Source: a virus | Lineage: Duplodnaviria > Caudoviricetes | Reading direction: 5' to 3' (one strand) | DNA length: 64,000 nt | IMG/VR virus record: IMGVR_UViG_3300013121_000026 | Location: 32,001 to 96,000 of that record | Shown here: piece by piece, positions 1,922-31,996 of the stretch | Numbering within the stretch: the stretch's first letter is position 1 | Layout: every line of letters begins with the position of its first letter | Program-made: the position numbers and the translations under genes | The notes under the pieces: generated by a model | What the model saw: the letters and a program-made list of their open reading frames with translations, nothing else | The model's database searches: none | Told to the model about the DNA's origin: nothing

Positions 1922-2008
1922 GCTAGAGTCCCATAGTGGTCGAGTGGACTGGTTTTGTAATCCAGTAGGGTAACCTCAACGTGAGTTCGAATCTCACCTC
2001 TAGCTCCA
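1922..2008 (+). tRNA. tRNA-Thr(TGT) with long variable arm
   Basis: GCTAGAG/CTCTAGC acceptor, loop TTTGTAA, variable region TAGGGTAACCTCAAC, TCCA end. Confidence 0.8.
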
Positions 2009-6177: not shown

Positions 6178-6263
6178 TCGAGGATGCGCTAACGGTAGGC
6201 AAGCGGACTTTGAATCCGTGCTAGCTCAAAAGAGCTATGAAGGTTCGATTCCTTCTCCTCGAT
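6178..6263 (+). tRNA. tRNA-Gln(TTG) with long variable arm
   Basis: TCGAGGA/TCCTCGA acceptor, loop CTTTGAA, variable hairpin TAGCTC-AAAA-GAGCTA. Confidence 0.8.
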
Positions 6264-6346
6264 CTCAAACATCCAGAAAACAAAAAAATTAAAAAAACAG
6301 ACACTATACAAATAGGGTTTGTTAGAAGTAGAATTAAAAAGAATAT

Positions 6347-6420: not shown

Positions 6421-6425
6421 ATAAT

Positions 6426-6501
6426 GCAAGCTAGGCCGATCTAGTGATGGCGACAGACTGTGGATCTGTTGAGGCTGGAGCGTAACCAGCAGCTTGTACC
6501 A
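6426..6501 (+). tRNA. tRNA-His(GTG), alphaproteobacterial type
   Basis: G1-U72, A73, T at position -1; loop CTGTGGA; T-loop AGCGTAA. Confidence 0.88.
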
Positions 6502-6507
6502 AAATAT

Positions 6508-6583
6508 TGCGGGTTGGAGGAGAAGATGCCTTGACTGGTTCATACCCAGTAGACACGGGAGCAACGGCCCGTACCCGCTTCCA
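6508..6583 (+). tRNA. tRNA-Met(CAT), initiator-like 1:72 mismatch
   Basis: TGCGGGT/ACCCGCT acceptor, ACTGG-TTCATAC-CCAGT, 8-nt T-loop AGCAACGG, CCA end. Confidence 0.75.
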
Positions 6584-6587
6584 ATTT

Positions 6588-6645
6588 AGGATGCCTGCAG
6601 CAACTCAAAAAATCTTTCAGCAAAAAAGAGCAAAGGTGCATCCTG
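6588..6645 (+). ncRNA. CNGCA stem-loop RNA unit A (Y-RNA-like candidate)
   Basis: AGGATGC-CTG-CAGCA...GCATCCT-G; internal TCTTT-CAGCAAA-AAAGA hairpin. Confidence 0.7.
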
Positions 6646-6654
6646 TTAAATTTA

Positions 6655-6774
6655 AGGCTATCTACAGCAACTAATTTGGGTCTTGTATACCCGTGGTCGT
6701 TGGTTCGAAGCCAACCTAGGTTATTTGTTAACCTAGTAGCTCAGTTTGGTAGAGCACGTAAAATGTATAGCCTG
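6655..6774 (+). ncRNA. CNGCA stem-loop RNA unit B containing a circularly permuted tRNA (YrlA-like architecture)
   Basis: AGGCTAT-CTA-CAGCA...ATAGCCT-G enclosing anticodon arm, T-arm, looped acceptor stem and D-arm in that order. Confidence 0.8.
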
Positions 6775-6785
6775 TTTTAATATAT

Positions 6786-10823: not shown

Positions 10824-11129
10824 ATGTTAGAAAAGCACCAAAAAATAATTAATAGAACAGAAGAAAAAATTCGTAAGAAAGTTGCTATTCTTAGGGATAA
10901 GATCAAACTACATAATAAGAAGCTAGAAGATTTTCAAAACAACGATTGCCCTCATCCTAATCTAACATACACAGCCAAAGGCTCTACCGGTAATTGGGAT
11001 AGAGAAAACACTTATTGGTATGAGTGGTGCTGTGATTGCTGCGGCAAACGTTGGATTACAAATCAAGATGAGGAAGGAAAAGAAACGAGATCCCGTTTTC
11101 CTCATGCAACACAAAAGAGAGAAATTTAA
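10824..11129 (+). CDS. Hypothetical protein with zinc-binding motif
   Basis: CPH...CDCCGKRW. Confidence 0.6.
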   Translation: MLEKHQKIINRTEEKIRKKVAILRDKIKLHNKKLEDFQNNDCPHPNLTYTAKGSTGNWDRENTYWYEWCCDCCGKRWITNQDEEGKETRSRFPHATQKREI

Positions 11130-11130
11130 A

Positions 11131-11814
11131 TTGAAATACGCATTAATATCTGATCTACACATTGATTTTTTGCCAGATCAAACTGTACATGAACTAGTTC
11201 AACACATTAACGTCAATACGACTGATGTTGATGCTATTCTCAATGCTGGTGATATTGCGGAAAATTTAAATAAACGTGAGGAGTTCTTCAATCAAATCAG
11301 TAAACCAACTTTTCATGTAATGGGAAATCATGACTATTACCGTTCTGGTGGTGGAAGAACATTAGAATATGTTCCAGAGCATGACATGGTATTAGCTACT
11401 CTTTGGACTAATTTTAATAATGATGTCGATTGTGTTATGGCTGCTCGAAAATATATCATGGATTTTCGTCTTATTAATTTTTGGTCACACCTGGATATGA
11501 ACAAAGCATATAAGGAAACTATTGAATTTATTGAGAATCATCGACCTAAAATCGTGGTCACACACTTTGGTCCACACAAAAAAGGAATCGCTGAGAAGTA
11601 CAAAAAGAATGAAGAAAAACTTAATAGGTACTTTATTAATGATTGCTCCAGCACTATTAAGAAAGTTAAGCCTGCTGTCTGGGCATTTGGACATACACAT
11701 TCTGCAATTGATACAACCGTTGGCAAAACTAGAATCATTGCAAATCCAATGGGTTATCCGAACGAAAATTACTACTTAATTAAAGACTATCCAATCGTAA
11801 AATTTGACGCTTGA
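11131..11814 (+). CDS. Calcineurin-like metallophosphoesterase
   Basis: SDLH, AGD, GNHD, THF and GHTH motifs; TTG start at 11131 preferred over the ORF-track start. Confidence 0.88.
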   Translation: MKYALISDLHIDFLPDQTVHELVQHINVNTTDVDAILNAGDIAENLNKREEFFNQISKPTFHVMGNHDYYRSGGGRTLEYVPEHDMVLATLWTNFNNDVDCVMAARKYIMDFRLINFWSHLDMNKAYKETIEFIENHRPKIVVTHFGPHKKGIAEKYKKNEEKLNRYFINDCSSTIKKVKPAVWAFGHTHSAIDTTVGKTRIIANPMGYPNENYYLIKDYPIVKFDA

Positions 11815-11853: not shown

Positions 11854-11943
11854 GGACCCATAGTTTAAAGGTAAAACACCAGTTTTATAAACTGTACTCC
11901 GGATTAGAGGGTAATATAGGTTCGAGTCCTATTGGGTCTACCA
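11854..11943 (+). tRNA. tRNA-Ile(TAT) with long variable region
   Basis: GGACCCA/TGGGTCT acceptor, loop TTTATAA, about 20-nt variable region, ACCA end. Confidence 0.8.
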
Positions 11944-12738: not shown

Positions 12739-12822
12739 GGGCACGTGGTGAAATCGGAAAACACGAAAGACTTAAAATCTTTTGCCTATGGCTTGTCGGT
12801 TCAAGTCCGACCGTGCCCACCA
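12739..12822 (+). tRNA. tRNA-Leu(TAA)
   Basis: GGGCACG/CGTGCCC acceptor, loop CTTAAAA, long variable arm, ACCA end. Confidence 0.92.
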
Positions 12823-12841
12823 TTATTATGAAGGGATAACA

Positions 12842-13141
12842 ATGTCCTATAAATTGTTTTTGGATGATGAGAGATTTCCTGTGGATGATACATTTGTAAT
12901 TGCTCGTTCTTATGATGATGCAGTTCAATTGTTTCATCTGTCTGGATTTCCAGCGTATGTGTCCTTTGACCATGACCTTGGTAGCAAAATGACCGGCTTT
13001 GATTTTGCTACGTTCCTTATTAATCAAGATCTCGACAATGATAATATGCCTGATGGGTTTACTTGGTATGTTCACAGCCAAAATCCTGTTGGGTCCCAAA
13101 ACATCGATATGTTGTTGAGGAATTACATTAACAGGAGGTGA
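12842..13141 (+). CDS. Cyclic-phosphate-processing receiver-domain protein (cREC)
   Basis: LFLDDERFP, SFDHDLG, TGFD and VHSQNPVG motifs; start at ATG 12842 after GAGGGA. Confidence 0.8.
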   Translation: MSYKLFLDDERFPVDDTFVIARSYDDAVQLFHLSGFPAYVSFDHDLGSKMTGFDFATFLINQDLDNDNMPDGFTWYVHSQNPVGSQNIDMLLRNYINRR

Positions 13142-13345: not shown

Positions 13346-13834
13346 AGGATATGTTCAGCACTTAATTAATATCCGTGGTAGTTGTAGTTTTAACTACACA
13401 AGCTGTTTGAGCTAAGAAAAACTAGTTGGGTGCCTGCGAATACGGCACGATATCCTGATTAAAGAGTTTTAAGAATCCCTACAGCAATCAATAAATTTTC
13501 ATTTGTAGAAAAAGAAGTGGATTCTGTTTATTTTGGAATGTTTACTGCACTCTAAATCCTTTCAGAACAAATTGGGAGTTGGAGACTCCCAAACATTCCG
13601 GTAAAATACAAGATTAAATACAGCAAACAAAAATATTTGGAATCCCTATAAAGGGGAAGGCTTTAGAATAAAGGCATTTGTTCTAAAGGATGGTCAAAAG
13701 TTCGAGGACTTTTATAATAACCTGAACCCGTAAAACGGATGGTGTACCATAATATATGCATTTAATCTGTAACTAAAATTTAAGTTTCATTTCCGCAACC
13801 ATAACAGCTTTGTACGCTCAAAAACATGAAACTG
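13346..13834 (+). ncRNA. Tandem array of five CNGCA stem-loop RNA units (Y-RNA-like candidates)
   Basis: Units 13346-13457, 13472-13526, 13535-13600, 13611-13769 and 13783-13834; each has a different but perfectly paired 7-9 bp stem, CNGCA at nt 11-15 and a 3' G. Confidence 0.8.
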
Positions 13835-31011: not shown

Positions 31012-31370
31012 TGGAACTGTTTAACATTCTAATCGCTGCTTATTTGCTTTGGATTCCAATTGCTATCTACAAAACAATGGTGGATTATTACAAAGTCTAT
31101 CAATTTGTCGAAGATAGCAAAGACGAGTTCCCGTATTTGTCTGCGGATATTTTTCGCGAGATCGAAAACTCGTCTATGATTTACTATTTTTTCAGAACAG
31201 TAACATTTTCCAGAAGTGCGTCACATTTTATCGAACCAATCAACATGATTATTAATAAAAAGTACAGTGTGGATGCATTAAGAAAAGATATTAAAATTAG
31301 CAAGGAAATTTTGGCTAAAATTGAAAAAGCACTCCAAACCAAACCAGTTGACAATAACGACGAAAAATAG
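31011..31370 (+). CDS. Hypothetical membrane protein
   Basis: N-terminal transmembrane helix. Confidence 0.55.
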   Translation: MELFNILIAAYLLWIPIAIYKTMVDYYKVYQFVEDSKDEFPYLSADIFREIENSSMIYYFFRTVTFSRSASHFIEPINMIINKKYSVDALRKDIKISKEILAKIEKALQTKPVDNNDEK

Positions 31371-31455
31371 TATAAATATAACGTTATGTTCAGTACTGTG
31401 GGAAGTACAGGCCGACAACGCTAGGACAAGGTTCGAATCCAAAACATAACAATTG

Positions 31456-31743
31456 ATATTCAGAGACGATTTACAGTAGGTATTTCGGACGTGGGGGCGG
31501 TTCCCACCACCTCCACCAAGAGTAGATCTAAGCAGGAAACTGCTAACAAAACTGACCATGGAACGGTTGATCTACTCTTGATGGGGGGGTGATATAGGAT
31601 CGACGAGTATTGAGAGTAAATTTGAGAATATCTCGGTGGTTGAGCAACCAGATTATAAATGGCAACGACAACGTTGACTATGCACTAGCAGCTTAAGCTA
31701 GGCGGGGTTAGTTGGGTTCCTAGCAACAGAATACCCAACGCCA
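31456..31743 (+). ncRNA. ssrA: Two-piece (permuted) tmRNA
   Basis: Acceptor piece ending GTGGG-GGCGGTT-CCCAC-CACCTCC-ACCA at 31518 precedes the coding piece GGGGGTG.. at 31585 (G3-U70); tag GNDNVDYALAA* at 31661-31696. Confidence 0.92.
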
Positions 31744-31768
31744 TTTTTATTTTAACAAAAAGTGAATT

Positions 31769-31996
31769 ATGAGTGAATTAAATTTTCCAATACAGACGTT
31801 TTTATTAGACATTGAAAAAATAGTAGCAGGTGGTGATACGTATATTAATGCTATCATTCATTGGTGTGAAAAAAAGAACGTAGAAATAGAGTACATTGCG
31901 CAACTTATTAATAGTAATTCCACCCTCAAATCAAAATTGCAATTGGAAGCTGAAAATTTGAATTTTTTACCCAAAAGCATCCGCCTTCCACTATAA
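31769..31996 (+). CDS. 33: Late-promoter transcription co-activator gp33
   Basis: YINAIIHWCE...E.E.IA.LI....LKSKLQLEAENLNFL. Confidence 0.82.
   Translation: MSELNFPIQTFLLDIEKIVAGGDTYINAIIHWCEKKNVEIEYIAQLINSNSTLKSKLQLEAENLNFLPKSIRLPL

What the first reader, a model, noticed from the sequence alone, without database searches (positions are those of the whole stretch)
6655..6774. A complete circularly permuted tRNA enclosed in a CNGCA unit
SEEN: inside AGGCTAT-CTA-CAGCA...ATAGCCT-G the order is anticodon arm GGGT-CTTGTAT-ACCC (TGT, Thr), variable GTGGTC, T-arm GTTGG-TTCGAAG-CCAAC, acceptor stem CTAGGTTA/TAACCTAG closed by a TTTGT loop, then TA and D-arm GCTC-AGTTTGGTA-GAGC-A. This is a tRNA opened between the D and anticodon arms with its 5' and 3' ends joined. 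KNOWN: bacterial YrlA Y RNAs have a T-arm / closed acceptor / D-arm permuted tRNA domain, but there the Ro-binding stem occupies the anticodon position. INFERRED: this is a non-chargeable tRNA mimic that keeps an anticodon loop, a possible decoy for tRNA-targeting defence nucleases. It is the strongest link between the CNGCA units and Y-RNA biology.
Basis: partly seen in the sequence, partly recalled or inferred. Interest (0 to 1): 0.88.

Follow-up and report, generated by a model that had tools for sequence, protein, structure and literature searches.

The report
tRNA-shaped partner RNA of phage Ro60-like protein
This phage RNA gene is a whole tRNA with its parts in rotated order and its amino-acid end sealed, mounted on a short conserved "handle" that travels with a Ro60-like ring protein, so it is most likely a non-decoding tRNA look-alike working in that RNA-protein particle.

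Summary
Window 6655-6773 (+) holds every tRNA part in permuted order inside a 7-bp closing helix. Re-permuted, ARAGORN calls it tRNA-Thr(UGU); the native order is not called.

It belongs to a large family. A covariance model found more than 60 full-length relatives in viral contigs. Helices, closing helix and the 15-48 tertiary pair all covary. Anticodon loops keep U33 and a purine at 37 while the anticodon varies.

One correction: family-wide, the two top pairs of the anticodon stem come from the chain leaving the D arm, as in YrlA. The break is therefore inside the anticodon stem (28/29), not between the arms.

The handle (helix, UUACAGCAA, 3' CUGUU) co-occurs with a DUF2828/DUF7788 protein (here 13845-15221) whose model matches Ro60. 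Its Bas63 homologue gp130 is reported to counter the Ppl defence, and Bas63 carries the same RNA.

Best reading: a non-decoding, Y-RNA-like tRNA mimic. The decoy idea is untested.

It scores below threshold for Rfam YrlA, and I found no paper describing it. This scan has found the same system many times on other DNA.

The parts
6655..6661 (+). closing helix, 5' strand (AGGCUAU)
   Evidence: Pairs with 6767-6773. In the family, 80% of members have a closing helix of 6 bp or more between their own head and tail, against 12% for mismatched heads and tails.
6662..6670 (+). handle motif CUACAGCAA (family consensus UUACAGCAA)
   Evidence: The A after CAGCA was not in the search pattern but is present in 62 of 64 members. 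The same motif stands in the other units of this window.
6671..6676 (+). 5' linker (CUAAUU) between handle motif and anticodon hairpin
   Evidence: Length varies in relatives.
6677..6693 (+). anticodon-arm hairpin UGGGU-CUUGUAU-ACCCG; anticodon UGU at 6684-6686
   Evidence: In A1 all 5 pairs change on both sides. In 28 strict relatives U33 is kept in 25, a purine at 37 in 27, and the anticodon varies.
6694..6698 (+). variable loop UGGUC (positions 44-48)
   Evidence: C6698 (position 48) covaries with G6744 (position 15) as the Levitt pair.
6699..6715 (+). T arm GUUGG-UUCGAAG-CCAAC
   Evidence: 100% paired in A1.
6716..6736 (+). sealed acceptor stem CUAGGUUA / UAACCUAG with loop UUUGU; no CCA
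   Evidence: Folds alone at -8.7 kcal/mol, z -4.07. All 7 pairs covary in A1.
6737..6755 (+). U8 A9 and D arm GCUC-AGUUUGGUA-GAGC
6756..6758 (+). A26, then C27' and G28', which pair with G6693 and C6692 (top of the anticodon stem, as in YrlA stem 3)
   Evidence: paired in 24/28 and 22/28 members, with 0 of 2000 shuffles as high.
6759..6766 (+). 3' linker UAAAAUGU (family: UAAAA-rich)
6767..6777 (+). closing helix, 3' strand (AUAGCCU) and the tail GUUU
   Evidence: CUGUU follows the helix in most members and in the neighbouring units.
6588..6644 (+). neighbouring short handle RNA (AGGAUGC-CUG-CAGCAA ... GCAUCCU-GUU)
   Evidence: Rfam Dicty_Class_I_RNA 22.2 bits, below the gathering score.
6305..6334 (+). 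promoter-like site ahead of the tRNA operon that contains the element
   Evidence: Consensus scan only, 9 of 12 matches.
13346..13834 (+). five further handle RNAs directly upstream of the Ro60-like gene
   Evidence: The unit at 13473-13526 scores 35.2 bits with Dicty_Class_I_RNA.
13845..15221 (+). DUF2828 + DUF7788 protein with a Ro60-like fold (HEAT-repeat ring plus vWA)
   Evidence: Pfam hits at E 2.6e-26 and 1.4e-51. Model pLDDT 87.8. Foldseek top hits are Ro60 2i91, 1yvr, 1yvp and phage Ro60 9kop, 9l5y, E about 1e-9.
12782..13141 (+). cREC_REC (cyclic-phosphate processing receiver) protein just upstream of the handle RNA array
   Evidence: Pfam PF20274, E 2.4e-21.
11020..11814 (+). calcineurin-type metallophosphoesterase
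   Evidence: Homologues lie within 10 kb of the DUF2828 gene in L013, L019 and L026, and in the same fetched locus in L080.

Best explanation
The element is a small non-coding RNA gene inside a phage tRNA operon. It has two modules.

Module 1 is a handle: a 7-10-bp helix joining the two ends, UUACAGCAA just inside the 5' strand, and CUGUU after the 3' strand. This phage has six other RNAs with the same handle. By analogy with Y RNAs on Ro60, it is most likely the docking site for the phage's Ro60-like DUF2828/DUF7788 ring protein.

Module 2 is a full tRNA body with canonical elbow contacts, a sealed acceptor end and a natural-looking anticodon loop. The handle branches from the 5' strand of the anticodon stem.

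The RNA is probably not charged and does not decode. Instead it presents a tRNA shape, anticodon loop included, to a factor that recognises whole tRNAs. It thereby couples or blocks the Ro60-like protein in the conflict over tRNA cleavage and repair during infection.

Shown: the anatomy, its conservation and covariation, the co-occurrence with the protein, and the protein's predicted fold.

Inferred: binding of the handle to the protein, lack of charging, and the target of the tRNA module.
For: Anatomy and tRNA likeness.

Family and structure:
- Helices covary.
- The Levitt pair covaries.
- The closing helix is specific to each member's own head and tail.
- More than 60 full-length model hits in viral contigs.

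Anticodon loop:
- U33 25/28, purine-37 27/28, A38 26/28.
- Position 34 is A only once, in ACG.
- All 28 anticodons are natural sense anticodons.

Against decoding:
- Leu/Ser/Tyr anticodons sit on short-variable-loop bodies in 8 of 28 members, and acceptor caps are as short as 2-4 nt.
- No CCA is encoded, while the phage's real tRNA genes encode it.

Protein link:
- 29 of 119 viral pattern loci and 41 of 120 prokaryote pattern loci hold a DUF2828 homologue within a few kb.
- 3 of 3 complete virus records that lacked one in the locus have one elsewhere.
- The model matches Ro60 over its whole length.

Function lead:
- Bas63 gp130 is 40% identical to the window protein.
- It is reported to counter the Ppl defence (10.1101/2024.10.10.617714).
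- Bas63 has the same tRNA-like handle RNA.

Context: cREC and metallophosphoesterase genes nearby, and a T4 Rnl1-type ligase elsewhere in the genome.
Against:
- The element lies 7 kb from the DUF2828 gene, not beside it.
- Ppl, the one defence linked to the protein family, is not known to be a tRNA nuclease.
- A 7-bp acceptor stem made M. smegmatis YrlA a substrate for RNase P and CCA addition (PMC4201824), so cleavage and even charging are not excluded for this member.
- The 18-sequence alignment was chosen for a paired anticodon hairpin, so its covariation there is partly by selection. Roughly 40% of family members carry a shorter or different hairpin in that place.
Confidence: 0.7

Rival explanations
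1. Two-piece working tRNA. RNase P cuts at the 5' side of the acceptor stem, the loop is trimmed and host enzyme adds CCA, as in M. smegmatis YrlA. The two chains stay together through the acceptor stem and the handle helix, and the RNA is charged (here with threonine) and may decode.
For: - The acceptor stem is 7-8 bp and the cloverleaf and elbow are complete.
- M. smegmatis YrlA with a 7-bp acceptor is cut by RNase P in vitro and is cleaved and CCA-tailed in vivo (PMC4201824).
- The anticodons in the family look natural.
- The same window encodes a permuted, two-piece-type tmRNA.
Against: - Leu, Ser and Tyr anticodons sit on bodies without a long variable arm in 8 of 28 members.
- No CCA is encoded, unlike the phage's real tRNAs.
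- A1-U72 and A2-U71 differ from the G1-C72, C2-G71 threonine identity pairs known from E. coli (my knowledge).
- A helix branching from the anticodon stem would have to fit the ribosome.
Confidence: 0.1
2. The tRNA shape is only a stability and processing device. It lets host tRNA enzymes excise the RNA from the tRNA operon and protects it from exonucleases. The anticodon hairpin has no specific target.
For: - The element sits between tRNA genes in one operon.
- Chen et al. proposed protection by the stable tRNA fold for YrlA (PMC4201824).
- Roughly 40% of relatives lack a 7-nt anticodon-type loop.
Against: - The short handle RNAs in the same operons do without a tRNA body.
- Conservation of U33, purine-37 and A38, and the avoidance of A34, are not needed for stability or excision.
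Confidence: 0.12
3. A true permuted tRNA gene. The ends held by the 7-bp helix are cut and ligated, the acceptor loop is removed, and an ordinary tRNA-Thr(UGU) results, as for the permuted tRNA genes of the red alga Cyanidioschyzon.
For: - The re-permuted sequence is a good tRNA.
- The phage encodes a T4 Rnl1-type RNA ligase.
Against: - The flanks form a plain helix with 15- and 10-nt linkers, not a bulge-helix-bulge motif, and bacteria lack the splicing endonuclease (my knowledge).
- The flanks are a conserved module shared with RNAs that have no tRNA part.
- The 3' chain supplies positions 27 and 28, so exact excision would need two precise cuts inside a helix.
- The phage already has a tRNA-Thr(UGU).
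Confidence: 0.03
4. A decaying remnant of a tandem tRNA duplication, with no function.
For: Duplication followed by loss of the outer halves is the simplest way for a permuted order to arise.
Against: - Conservation with compensatory changes across distant phages and bacteria.
- No close relative among the phage's own tRNAs.
Confidence: 0.02

Closest known systems
YrlA, the tRNA-like Y RNA of bacterial and phage Ro60/Rsr (Rfam RF02553; Chen et al. 2014, PMC4201824)
   Same: - Same order of parts: protein-binding stem, T arm, sealed acceptor stem, D arm, then back to the stem.
- The 15-48 pair covaries in both.
- Both are encoded on the same strand as, and near, a ring protein of the Ro60 fold.
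- The short stem made by positions 42-44 with the chain after the D arm is shared.
   Different: - Scores 44.4 bits against a gathering score of 69.
- No GNCGAA motif; the protein-side module is helix + UUACAGCAA + CUGUU.
- The protein is DUF2828/DUF7788 with no Pfam TROVE hit.
- An anticodon hairpin with a 7-nt loop stands where YrlA continues into the Ro60-binding stem.
Phage Ro60 with Y-RNA-like RNAs (Thermus phage phiLo Ro60 with Yrl1/Yrl2, PMC12135203; Ro60-carrying mycobacteriophages, PMC4201824)
   Same: - A phage-encoded Ro60-fold protein with small structured RNAs encoded next to it.
- Proposed use against host defences.
   Different: - phiLo Yrl RNAs were picked by a CGAA motif and no tRNA-like domain is mentioned in that paper.
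- The protein here belongs to another sequence family.
Bas63 gp130, a Ro60-like counter of the Ppl defence (PhageMaP preprint 10.1101/2024.10.10.617714)
   Same: - gp130 is 40% identical to the window protein.
- It lies just upstream of the tRNA array.
- That array holds a tRNA-like handle RNA.
   Different: - The preprint only guessed that some annotated tRNAs might be Y RNAs.
- The RNA found here is not an annotated tRNA. It lies under a small minus-strand ORF annotated as bas63_0137.
Class I RNAs of dictyostelid amoebae (Rfam RF01414; Kjellin et al. 2021, PMC7919456)
   Same: For the handle only: a short helix joining the ends, the motif ..UUACAGCAA next to the 5' strand, and CUGU after the 3' strand. 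Two short units of this window score 22.2 and 35.2 bits.
   Different: - Both scores are below the gathering score of 41.5.
- Class I RNAs are 42-65 nt and eukaryotic, their known direct partner is the RRM protein Rnp1A, and none carries a tRNA body.
- Whether the likeness is homology is open.
Permuted tRNA genes of Cyanidioschyzon merolae and a few archaea (Soma et al. 2007; from my knowledge, not read here)
   Same: The 3' part of a tRNA is encoded upstream of the 5' part, with the acceptor strands joined by a short intervening loop.
   Different: - Those are matured through a bulge-helix-bulge cut, circularisation and end processing into working tRNAs.
- Here the flanks are a conserved protein-handle module, and features across the family argue against decoding.

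Membership tests
YrlA (Rfam RF02553) | Score at or above the curated gathering score (69 bits) | tested here: not met
   44.4 bits, E 8e-9 in the local search; the same score in the whole-genome search.
YrlA (Rfam RF02553) | tRNA-like module: T arm, sealed acceptor stem, D arm, closed by a short stem | tested here: met
   cmscan alignment; covariation of these helices; pairs 43-27' and 42-28'.
YrlA (Rfam RF02553) | GNCGAAN0-1G motif near the 5' end in the Ro60-binding stem (PMC4201824) | tested here: not met
   The 5' region 6655-6676 reads AGGCUAUCUACAGCAACUAAUU and has no such motif. The family consensus is UUACAGCAA.
YrlA (Rfam RF02553) | Encoded within about 4 kb of, and on the same strand as, a TROVE-domain Ro60 gene | tested here: not met
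   No PF05731 match in the genome. The Ro60-fold DUF2828 gene is on the same strand but 7 kb away.
CAGCAA-handle RNAs associated with DUF2828 (uncatalogued; defined in this scan) | Helix of 7-10 bp joining the ends, (U)UACAGCAA just inside the 5' strand, CUGUU after the 3' strand | tested here: met
CAGCAA-handle RNAs associated with DUF2828 (uncatalogued; defined in this scan) | Co-occurrence with a DUF2828/DUF7788 gene in the same genome | tested here: met
   Gene at 13845-15221. Family-wide co-occurrence.
CAGCAA-handle RNAs associated with DUF2828 (uncatalogued; defined in this scan) | Physical binding of the handle to the protein | not testable with these tools
   No RNA-protein prediction or experimental data available.
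tRNA (Rfam RF00005) | Cloverleaf in the standard order with free acceptor ends | tested here: not met
   Native order: no ARAGORN call, and an 18.4-bit partial Rfam hit against a gathering score of 29. Only the re-permuted sequence is called.
tRNA (Rfam RF00005) | Body class matches the anticodon (long variable arm for bacterial Leu, Ser, Tyr) | tested here: not met
   Family level: 8 of 28 members have such anticodons with 4-5-nt variable loops. This feature says nothing for this Thr member itself.
Permuted tRNA genes (Cyanidioschyzon type) | Bulge-helix-bulge motif at the junction of leader and trailer | tested here: not met
   The flanks form a plain 7-bp helix with single-stranded linkers of 15 and 10 nt.
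Permuted tRNA genes (Cyanidioschyzon type) | Circular intermediate and mature, charged tRNA | not testable with these tools
Dictyostelid Class I RNA (Rfam RF01414) | Score at or above the gathering score (41.5 bits), length 42-65 nt | tested here: not met
   This element is 119 nt and is not hit. Neighbouring short units score 22.2 and 35.2 bits.
Ro60 / TROVE proteins (for the partner protein) | Ring of HEAT-like repeats followed by a vWA domain with a MIDAS motif | tested here: met
   Model pLDDT 87.8. Whole-length Foldseek matches to Ro60 structures, TM 0.57-0.67. D267, S269 and S271 of the DVSGSM stretch are invariant in A2.
Ro60 / TROVE proteins (for the partner protein) | Sequence membership in Pfam TROVE (PF05731) | tested here: not met
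   No match. The profile against PDB sequences reaches Ro60 only at E 0.9.

The most novel reading that the evidence does not exclude
The family is an anticodon-addressed bait system. Each phage mounts a sealed tRNA body with a chosen natural anticodon on a handle that loads it onto a Ro60-like ring. The particle then captures or disarms a host factor that reads that anticodon loop, such as an anticodon nuclease. Changing the anticodon would retarget it. A linked possibility is that the same handle-protein pairing explains the Class I RNAs of social amoebae.
Probability: 0.2. Interest if true: 0.85.

Novelty: new variant of a known kind. Interest (0 to 1): 0.62.

Why it matters
What the tRNA-like part of bacterial Y RNAs does has been open since 2014. 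This family offers a clearer version of the question:
- a whole tRNA shape with an anticodon loop under selection,
- a protein partner of a very large family of unknown function (707 cultured phage genomes),
- presence in easily handled coliphages (Felix O1 relatives, Bas63), where the protein already has a reported anti-defence phenotype.

It also flags annotation errors. In Bas63 and AYO145A the RNA lies under small ORFs called hypothetical proteins.

Tried and rejected
- A plain blastn of 6421-6785 against cultured phages gave only short tRNA-like hits.
- A simple finder for 'CNGCA plus a 7-bp stem' was as frequent on the minus strand as on the plus strand and was dropped as too noisy.
- The pattern CTNCNGCAA alone is only about twice chance in the window.
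- Pfam TROVE and RtcB are absent from the genome.
- The permuted tRNA is not a copy of any of the phage's own tRNAs.
- Rfam has no family reaching threshold here. Three newly described tRNA mimics (skipping-rope, DUF2693-FD, salivarius-1) are unrelated.
- I could not establish whether the unknown Class I RNA-associated protein DDB_G0281243 is a DUF2828 protein.
- One guessed accession turned out to be a different phage.
- Infernal and tRNAscan-SE could not be run on the re-permuted sequence; ARAGORN was used instead.
- Complex prediction was not used because it cannot take RNA.

Full report
**Setting**

The window is bases 32001-96000 of a 160,761-bp virus record with direct terminal repeats. 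It has about 37% G+C. It carries a dense tRNA array, and Rfam's permuted and alpha tmRNA models both match at 31344-31740. Earlier notes on the same genome name T4-type genes.

The element lies in a tRNA operon. The order is:
- a promoter-like site at 6305-6334,
- tRNA-Gln,
- a tRNA that only Rfam calls (6426-6498),
- a cloverleaf-like fold with a CAU loop (6509-6578),
- a short CAGCAA unit (6588-6644),
- the element (6655-6773),
- tRNA-Trp, tRNA-Thr and tRNA-Ser.

**Checking the observation**

I joined the 5' acceptor strand through A26 (6730-6756) to the anticodon arm through A73 (6677-6723). ARAGORN calls the result tRNA-Thr(tgt), with a 7-bp acceptor stem, 4-bp D stem, 5-bp anticodon stem, 7-nt loop and 5-bp T stem. 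The native order gives no call.

By my reading of the sequence, the usual tertiary partners are all present: U8-A14, G15-C48, G18 and G19 with the T loop, G46, and T54-A58.

Rfam's YrlA model aligns over the T arm, sealed acceptor stem and D arm at 44.4 bits. That is below the gathering score of 69, but E is 8e-9 in that local search.

**It is a family**

A pattern with no protein information (CAGCA, T loop, D loop at suitable spacing) hit more than 119 viral contigs. Of these hits, 34 distinct units have both a sealed 7-bp acceptor stem and a closing helix.

I aligned 18 of them (A1):
- The four tRNA helices are 96.6% paired, and 16 of 21 pairs change on both sides.
- The covariation score is 0.87, against 0.20 in shuffles and at most 0.22 when partners are slid.
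- The reverse-Watson-Crick 15-48 pair covaries as G-C, A-U or U-A in 16 of 18. Chen et al. used the same signature for YrlA (PMC4201824).

A covariance model of A1 scores the window element at 104 bits. It finds no second strong copy in this genome. It finds 72 hits at E below 1e-8 in the fetched loci, of which 64-65 are full length with the motif.

The closing helix is 6 bp or longer in 80% of members, against 12% when heads and tails of different members are combined. The motif consensus is UUACAGCAA. Its last A was not in my pattern but is present in 62 of 64.

**The anticodon arm**

A caveat first: the 18 sequences of A1 were chosen for at least 4 of 5 pairs in a 5/7/5 hairpin, so covariation there is partly selected. 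About 7% of random 17-mers would pass that test (my calculation), which is roughly 2 of 34; 18 of 34 did.

In the wider model alignment, 42 of 65 full-length members have a 7-nt loop. Of these, 28 also have the inner three pairs formed. In those 28:
- U33 is kept in 25, a purine at 37 in 27, and A38 in 26.
- The anticodon varies: GUU, GAA, UUU, CAU, GUC, UGU, UGG, GCU, GUA, UAG, CCC, ACG and others.
- Position 34 is A only once, in ACG, the one natural A34 anticodon of bacteria.
- No stop anticodon occurs.

So the loop is held to the shape and repertoire of real tRNAs, not merely to a hairpin. The remaining members carry hairpins with other loop lengths, mostly shorter, or none at all in that place.

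**Correcting the break point**

The two nucleotides that follow A26 pair with positions 43 and 42 in 24 and 22 of 28 members; 0 of 2000 shuffles reach this. The nominal 5' strand positions 27 and 28 pair in 21 of 28 (mostly U.G) and 13 of 28, the latter not above chance.

In the window these pairs are C6757-G6693 and G6758-C6692. The top of the anticodon stem is therefore made as in an ordinary tRNA and as in YrlA stem 3. The 5' chain enters at about position 29, and the handle branches from the side of the anticodon stem.

Earlier notes of this scan describe the mirror layout on other DNA: CCA-ending tRNA bodies with the handle inserted in the anticodon stem. That fits this junction, but I did not test those notes.

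**The protein**

The ORF at 13845-15221 matches Pfam DUF7788 (E 1.4e-51) and DUF2828 (E 2.6e-26). It is preceded by five more handle RNAs.

The genome has no Pfam TROVE or RtcB match. An AlphaFold2 model from 22 homologues has mean pLDDT 87.8 and pTM 0.86. Its best PDB matches are all Ro60: 2i91, 1yvr, 1yvp, the Thermus phage Ro60 9kop and 9l5y, and Deinococcus Rsr. E-values run from 2e-9 to 3e-7, over about 500-550 aligned columns at 12-18% identity.

Co-occurrence is strong:
- 29 of 119 viral pattern loci hold a homologue within the few kb fetched.
- Of 15 whole records searched among the units that lacked one in the locus, 7 have it, including all 3 complete ones. The rest are fragments.
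- 41 of 120 pattern loci from prokaryote genomes, labelled Treponema, Akkermansia, Clostridia and others, have it too.

**Cultured phages**

tblastn finds the protein in 707 cultured phage genomes. These include Felixounavirus, Campylobacter, Listeria, Staphylococcus and Enterococcus phages, T4-like Aeromonas and Vibrio phages, and mycobacteriophages, where it is annotated 'Ro-like RNA binding protein'.

- In coliphage AYO145A the gene is followed by two short handle RNAs and a tRNA-like one.
- In mycobacteriophage Calm three CAGCAA units follow the gene, and the middle one scores 39.8 bits with YrlA.
- In Bas63 the protein is gp130, 40% identical to the window protein with E 5e-110. The tRNA-like handle RNA lies at locus L280 20780-20906, under a small minus-strand ORF.
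[quoted passage not shown] It notes the protein looks like Ro60 and that some annotated tRNAs might be Y RNAs (10.1101/2024.10.10.617714). It did not identify the RNAs.

**How it most likely works**

In the Ro60 paradigm, a Y RNA binds the ring through one helix and uses its other module to tether or gate (PMC4201824, PMC12135203). Here the constant handle is the natural candidate for the protein-binding helix, and the variable inner module is the cargo.

This member's cargo is a tRNA body more canonical than the phage's own tRNAs. It has an ordinary D loop and T loop.

Several features argue that it does not decode:
- no CCA is encoded, although nearly all real tRNA genes of this phage encode it;
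- class II anticodons sit on class I bodies.

The neighbourhood points to RNA-end chemistry:
- a cREC domain protein lies just upstream of the RNA array;
- a metallophosphoesterase recurs near the DUF2828 gene in four other loci;
- a T4 Rnl1-type ligase is encoded elsewhere in the genome.

I therefore favour a tRNA look-alike that brings the Ro60-like particle together with a tRNA-recognising factor, in the contest over tRNA cleavage and repair.

**Rivals**

- The two-piece tRNA idea is kept alive by M. smegmatis YrlA, which RNase P cuts and which gains CCA in vivo.
- The stability-only idea does not explain the constraints on the loop.
- Maturation into an ordinary tRNA lacks a plausible processing signal.
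- A dead remnant is excluded by covariation.

**Comparison with the known, and novelty**

It works like YrlA and shares its core. It fails YrlA membership on score, on the Ro60-binding motif and on the protein family.

I found no paper and no Rfam family for the CAGCAA handle RNAs. The handle does resemble dictyostelid Class I RNAs in helix, motif and CUGU tail, a lead I could not resolve.

This scan has reported the same handle-protein system, including permuted whole-tRNA members, many times on other DNA. Those notes agree with what I tested here independently. I rate it a new variant of a known kind.

Noticed in passing
window 6588-6644 and 13473-13526: Short handle RNAs score 22.2 and 35.2 bits with the Rfam model of dictyostelid Class I RNAs (gathering score 41.5). 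They share its helix, ..UACAGCAA motif and CUGU tail. One of four proteins pulled down with a Class I RNA, DDB_G0281243, has no known function; I could not find out whether it is a DUF2828 protein.
   Followed up: partly
L280 20749-20901 (Bas63, MZ501086 82748-82900) and L157 8395-8652 (AYO145A): Small minus-strand 'hypothetical protein' ORFs (bas63_0137; AVT61_gp131) overlap the plus-strand tRNA-like handle RNA. They may be annotation artefacts.
   Followed up: partly
window 12782-13141: A cREC_REC (cyclic-phosphate processing receiver) domain protein lies directly upstream of the handle RNA array and the Ro60-like gene. Weak homologues occur in four other pattern loci (L078, L093, L107, L113).
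   Followed up: partly
window 11020-11814: A calcineurin-type metallophosphoesterase. Homologues lie within 10 kb of the DUF2828 gene in L013, L019 and L026, and in the same fetched locus in L080. This suggests a recurring RNA end-healing partner.
   Followed up: partly
window 6426-6498 and 6509-6578: Two tRNA-like genes that ARAGORN misses. The first has a GUG loop (Rfam tRNA 39.7 bits). The second is a cloverleaf-like fold with a CAU loop and an odd T loop, GCAACGG.
   Followed up: partly
window 1922-2008, 6178-6264, 11854-11943: tRNA-Thr(UGU), tRNA-Gln(UUG) and tRNA-Ile(UAU) calls are 87-90 nt long, with long variable-arm-like inserts unusual for these amino acids.
   Followed up: no
window 31344-31787: Rfam's permuted tmRNA model (111.8 bits) and alpha tmRNA model (112.5 bits) both match here. 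The tag peptide is GNDNVDYALAA. It is a second RNA with rotated tRNA parts in the same phage.
   Followed up: no
L158 3915-4165 (Mycobacterium phage Calm): Three CAGCAA handle units follow the gene annotated 'Ro-like RNA binding protein', which is a DUF2828 homologue. A band-7-like membrane protein gene lies about 1 kb upstream of it.
   Followed up: partly
L053, L054, L055, L058, L068, L072, L075, L094, L106, L112, L126, L128: Several viral contigs carry two tRNA-like handle RNAs, sometimes with different anticodon-type loops.
   Followed up: no
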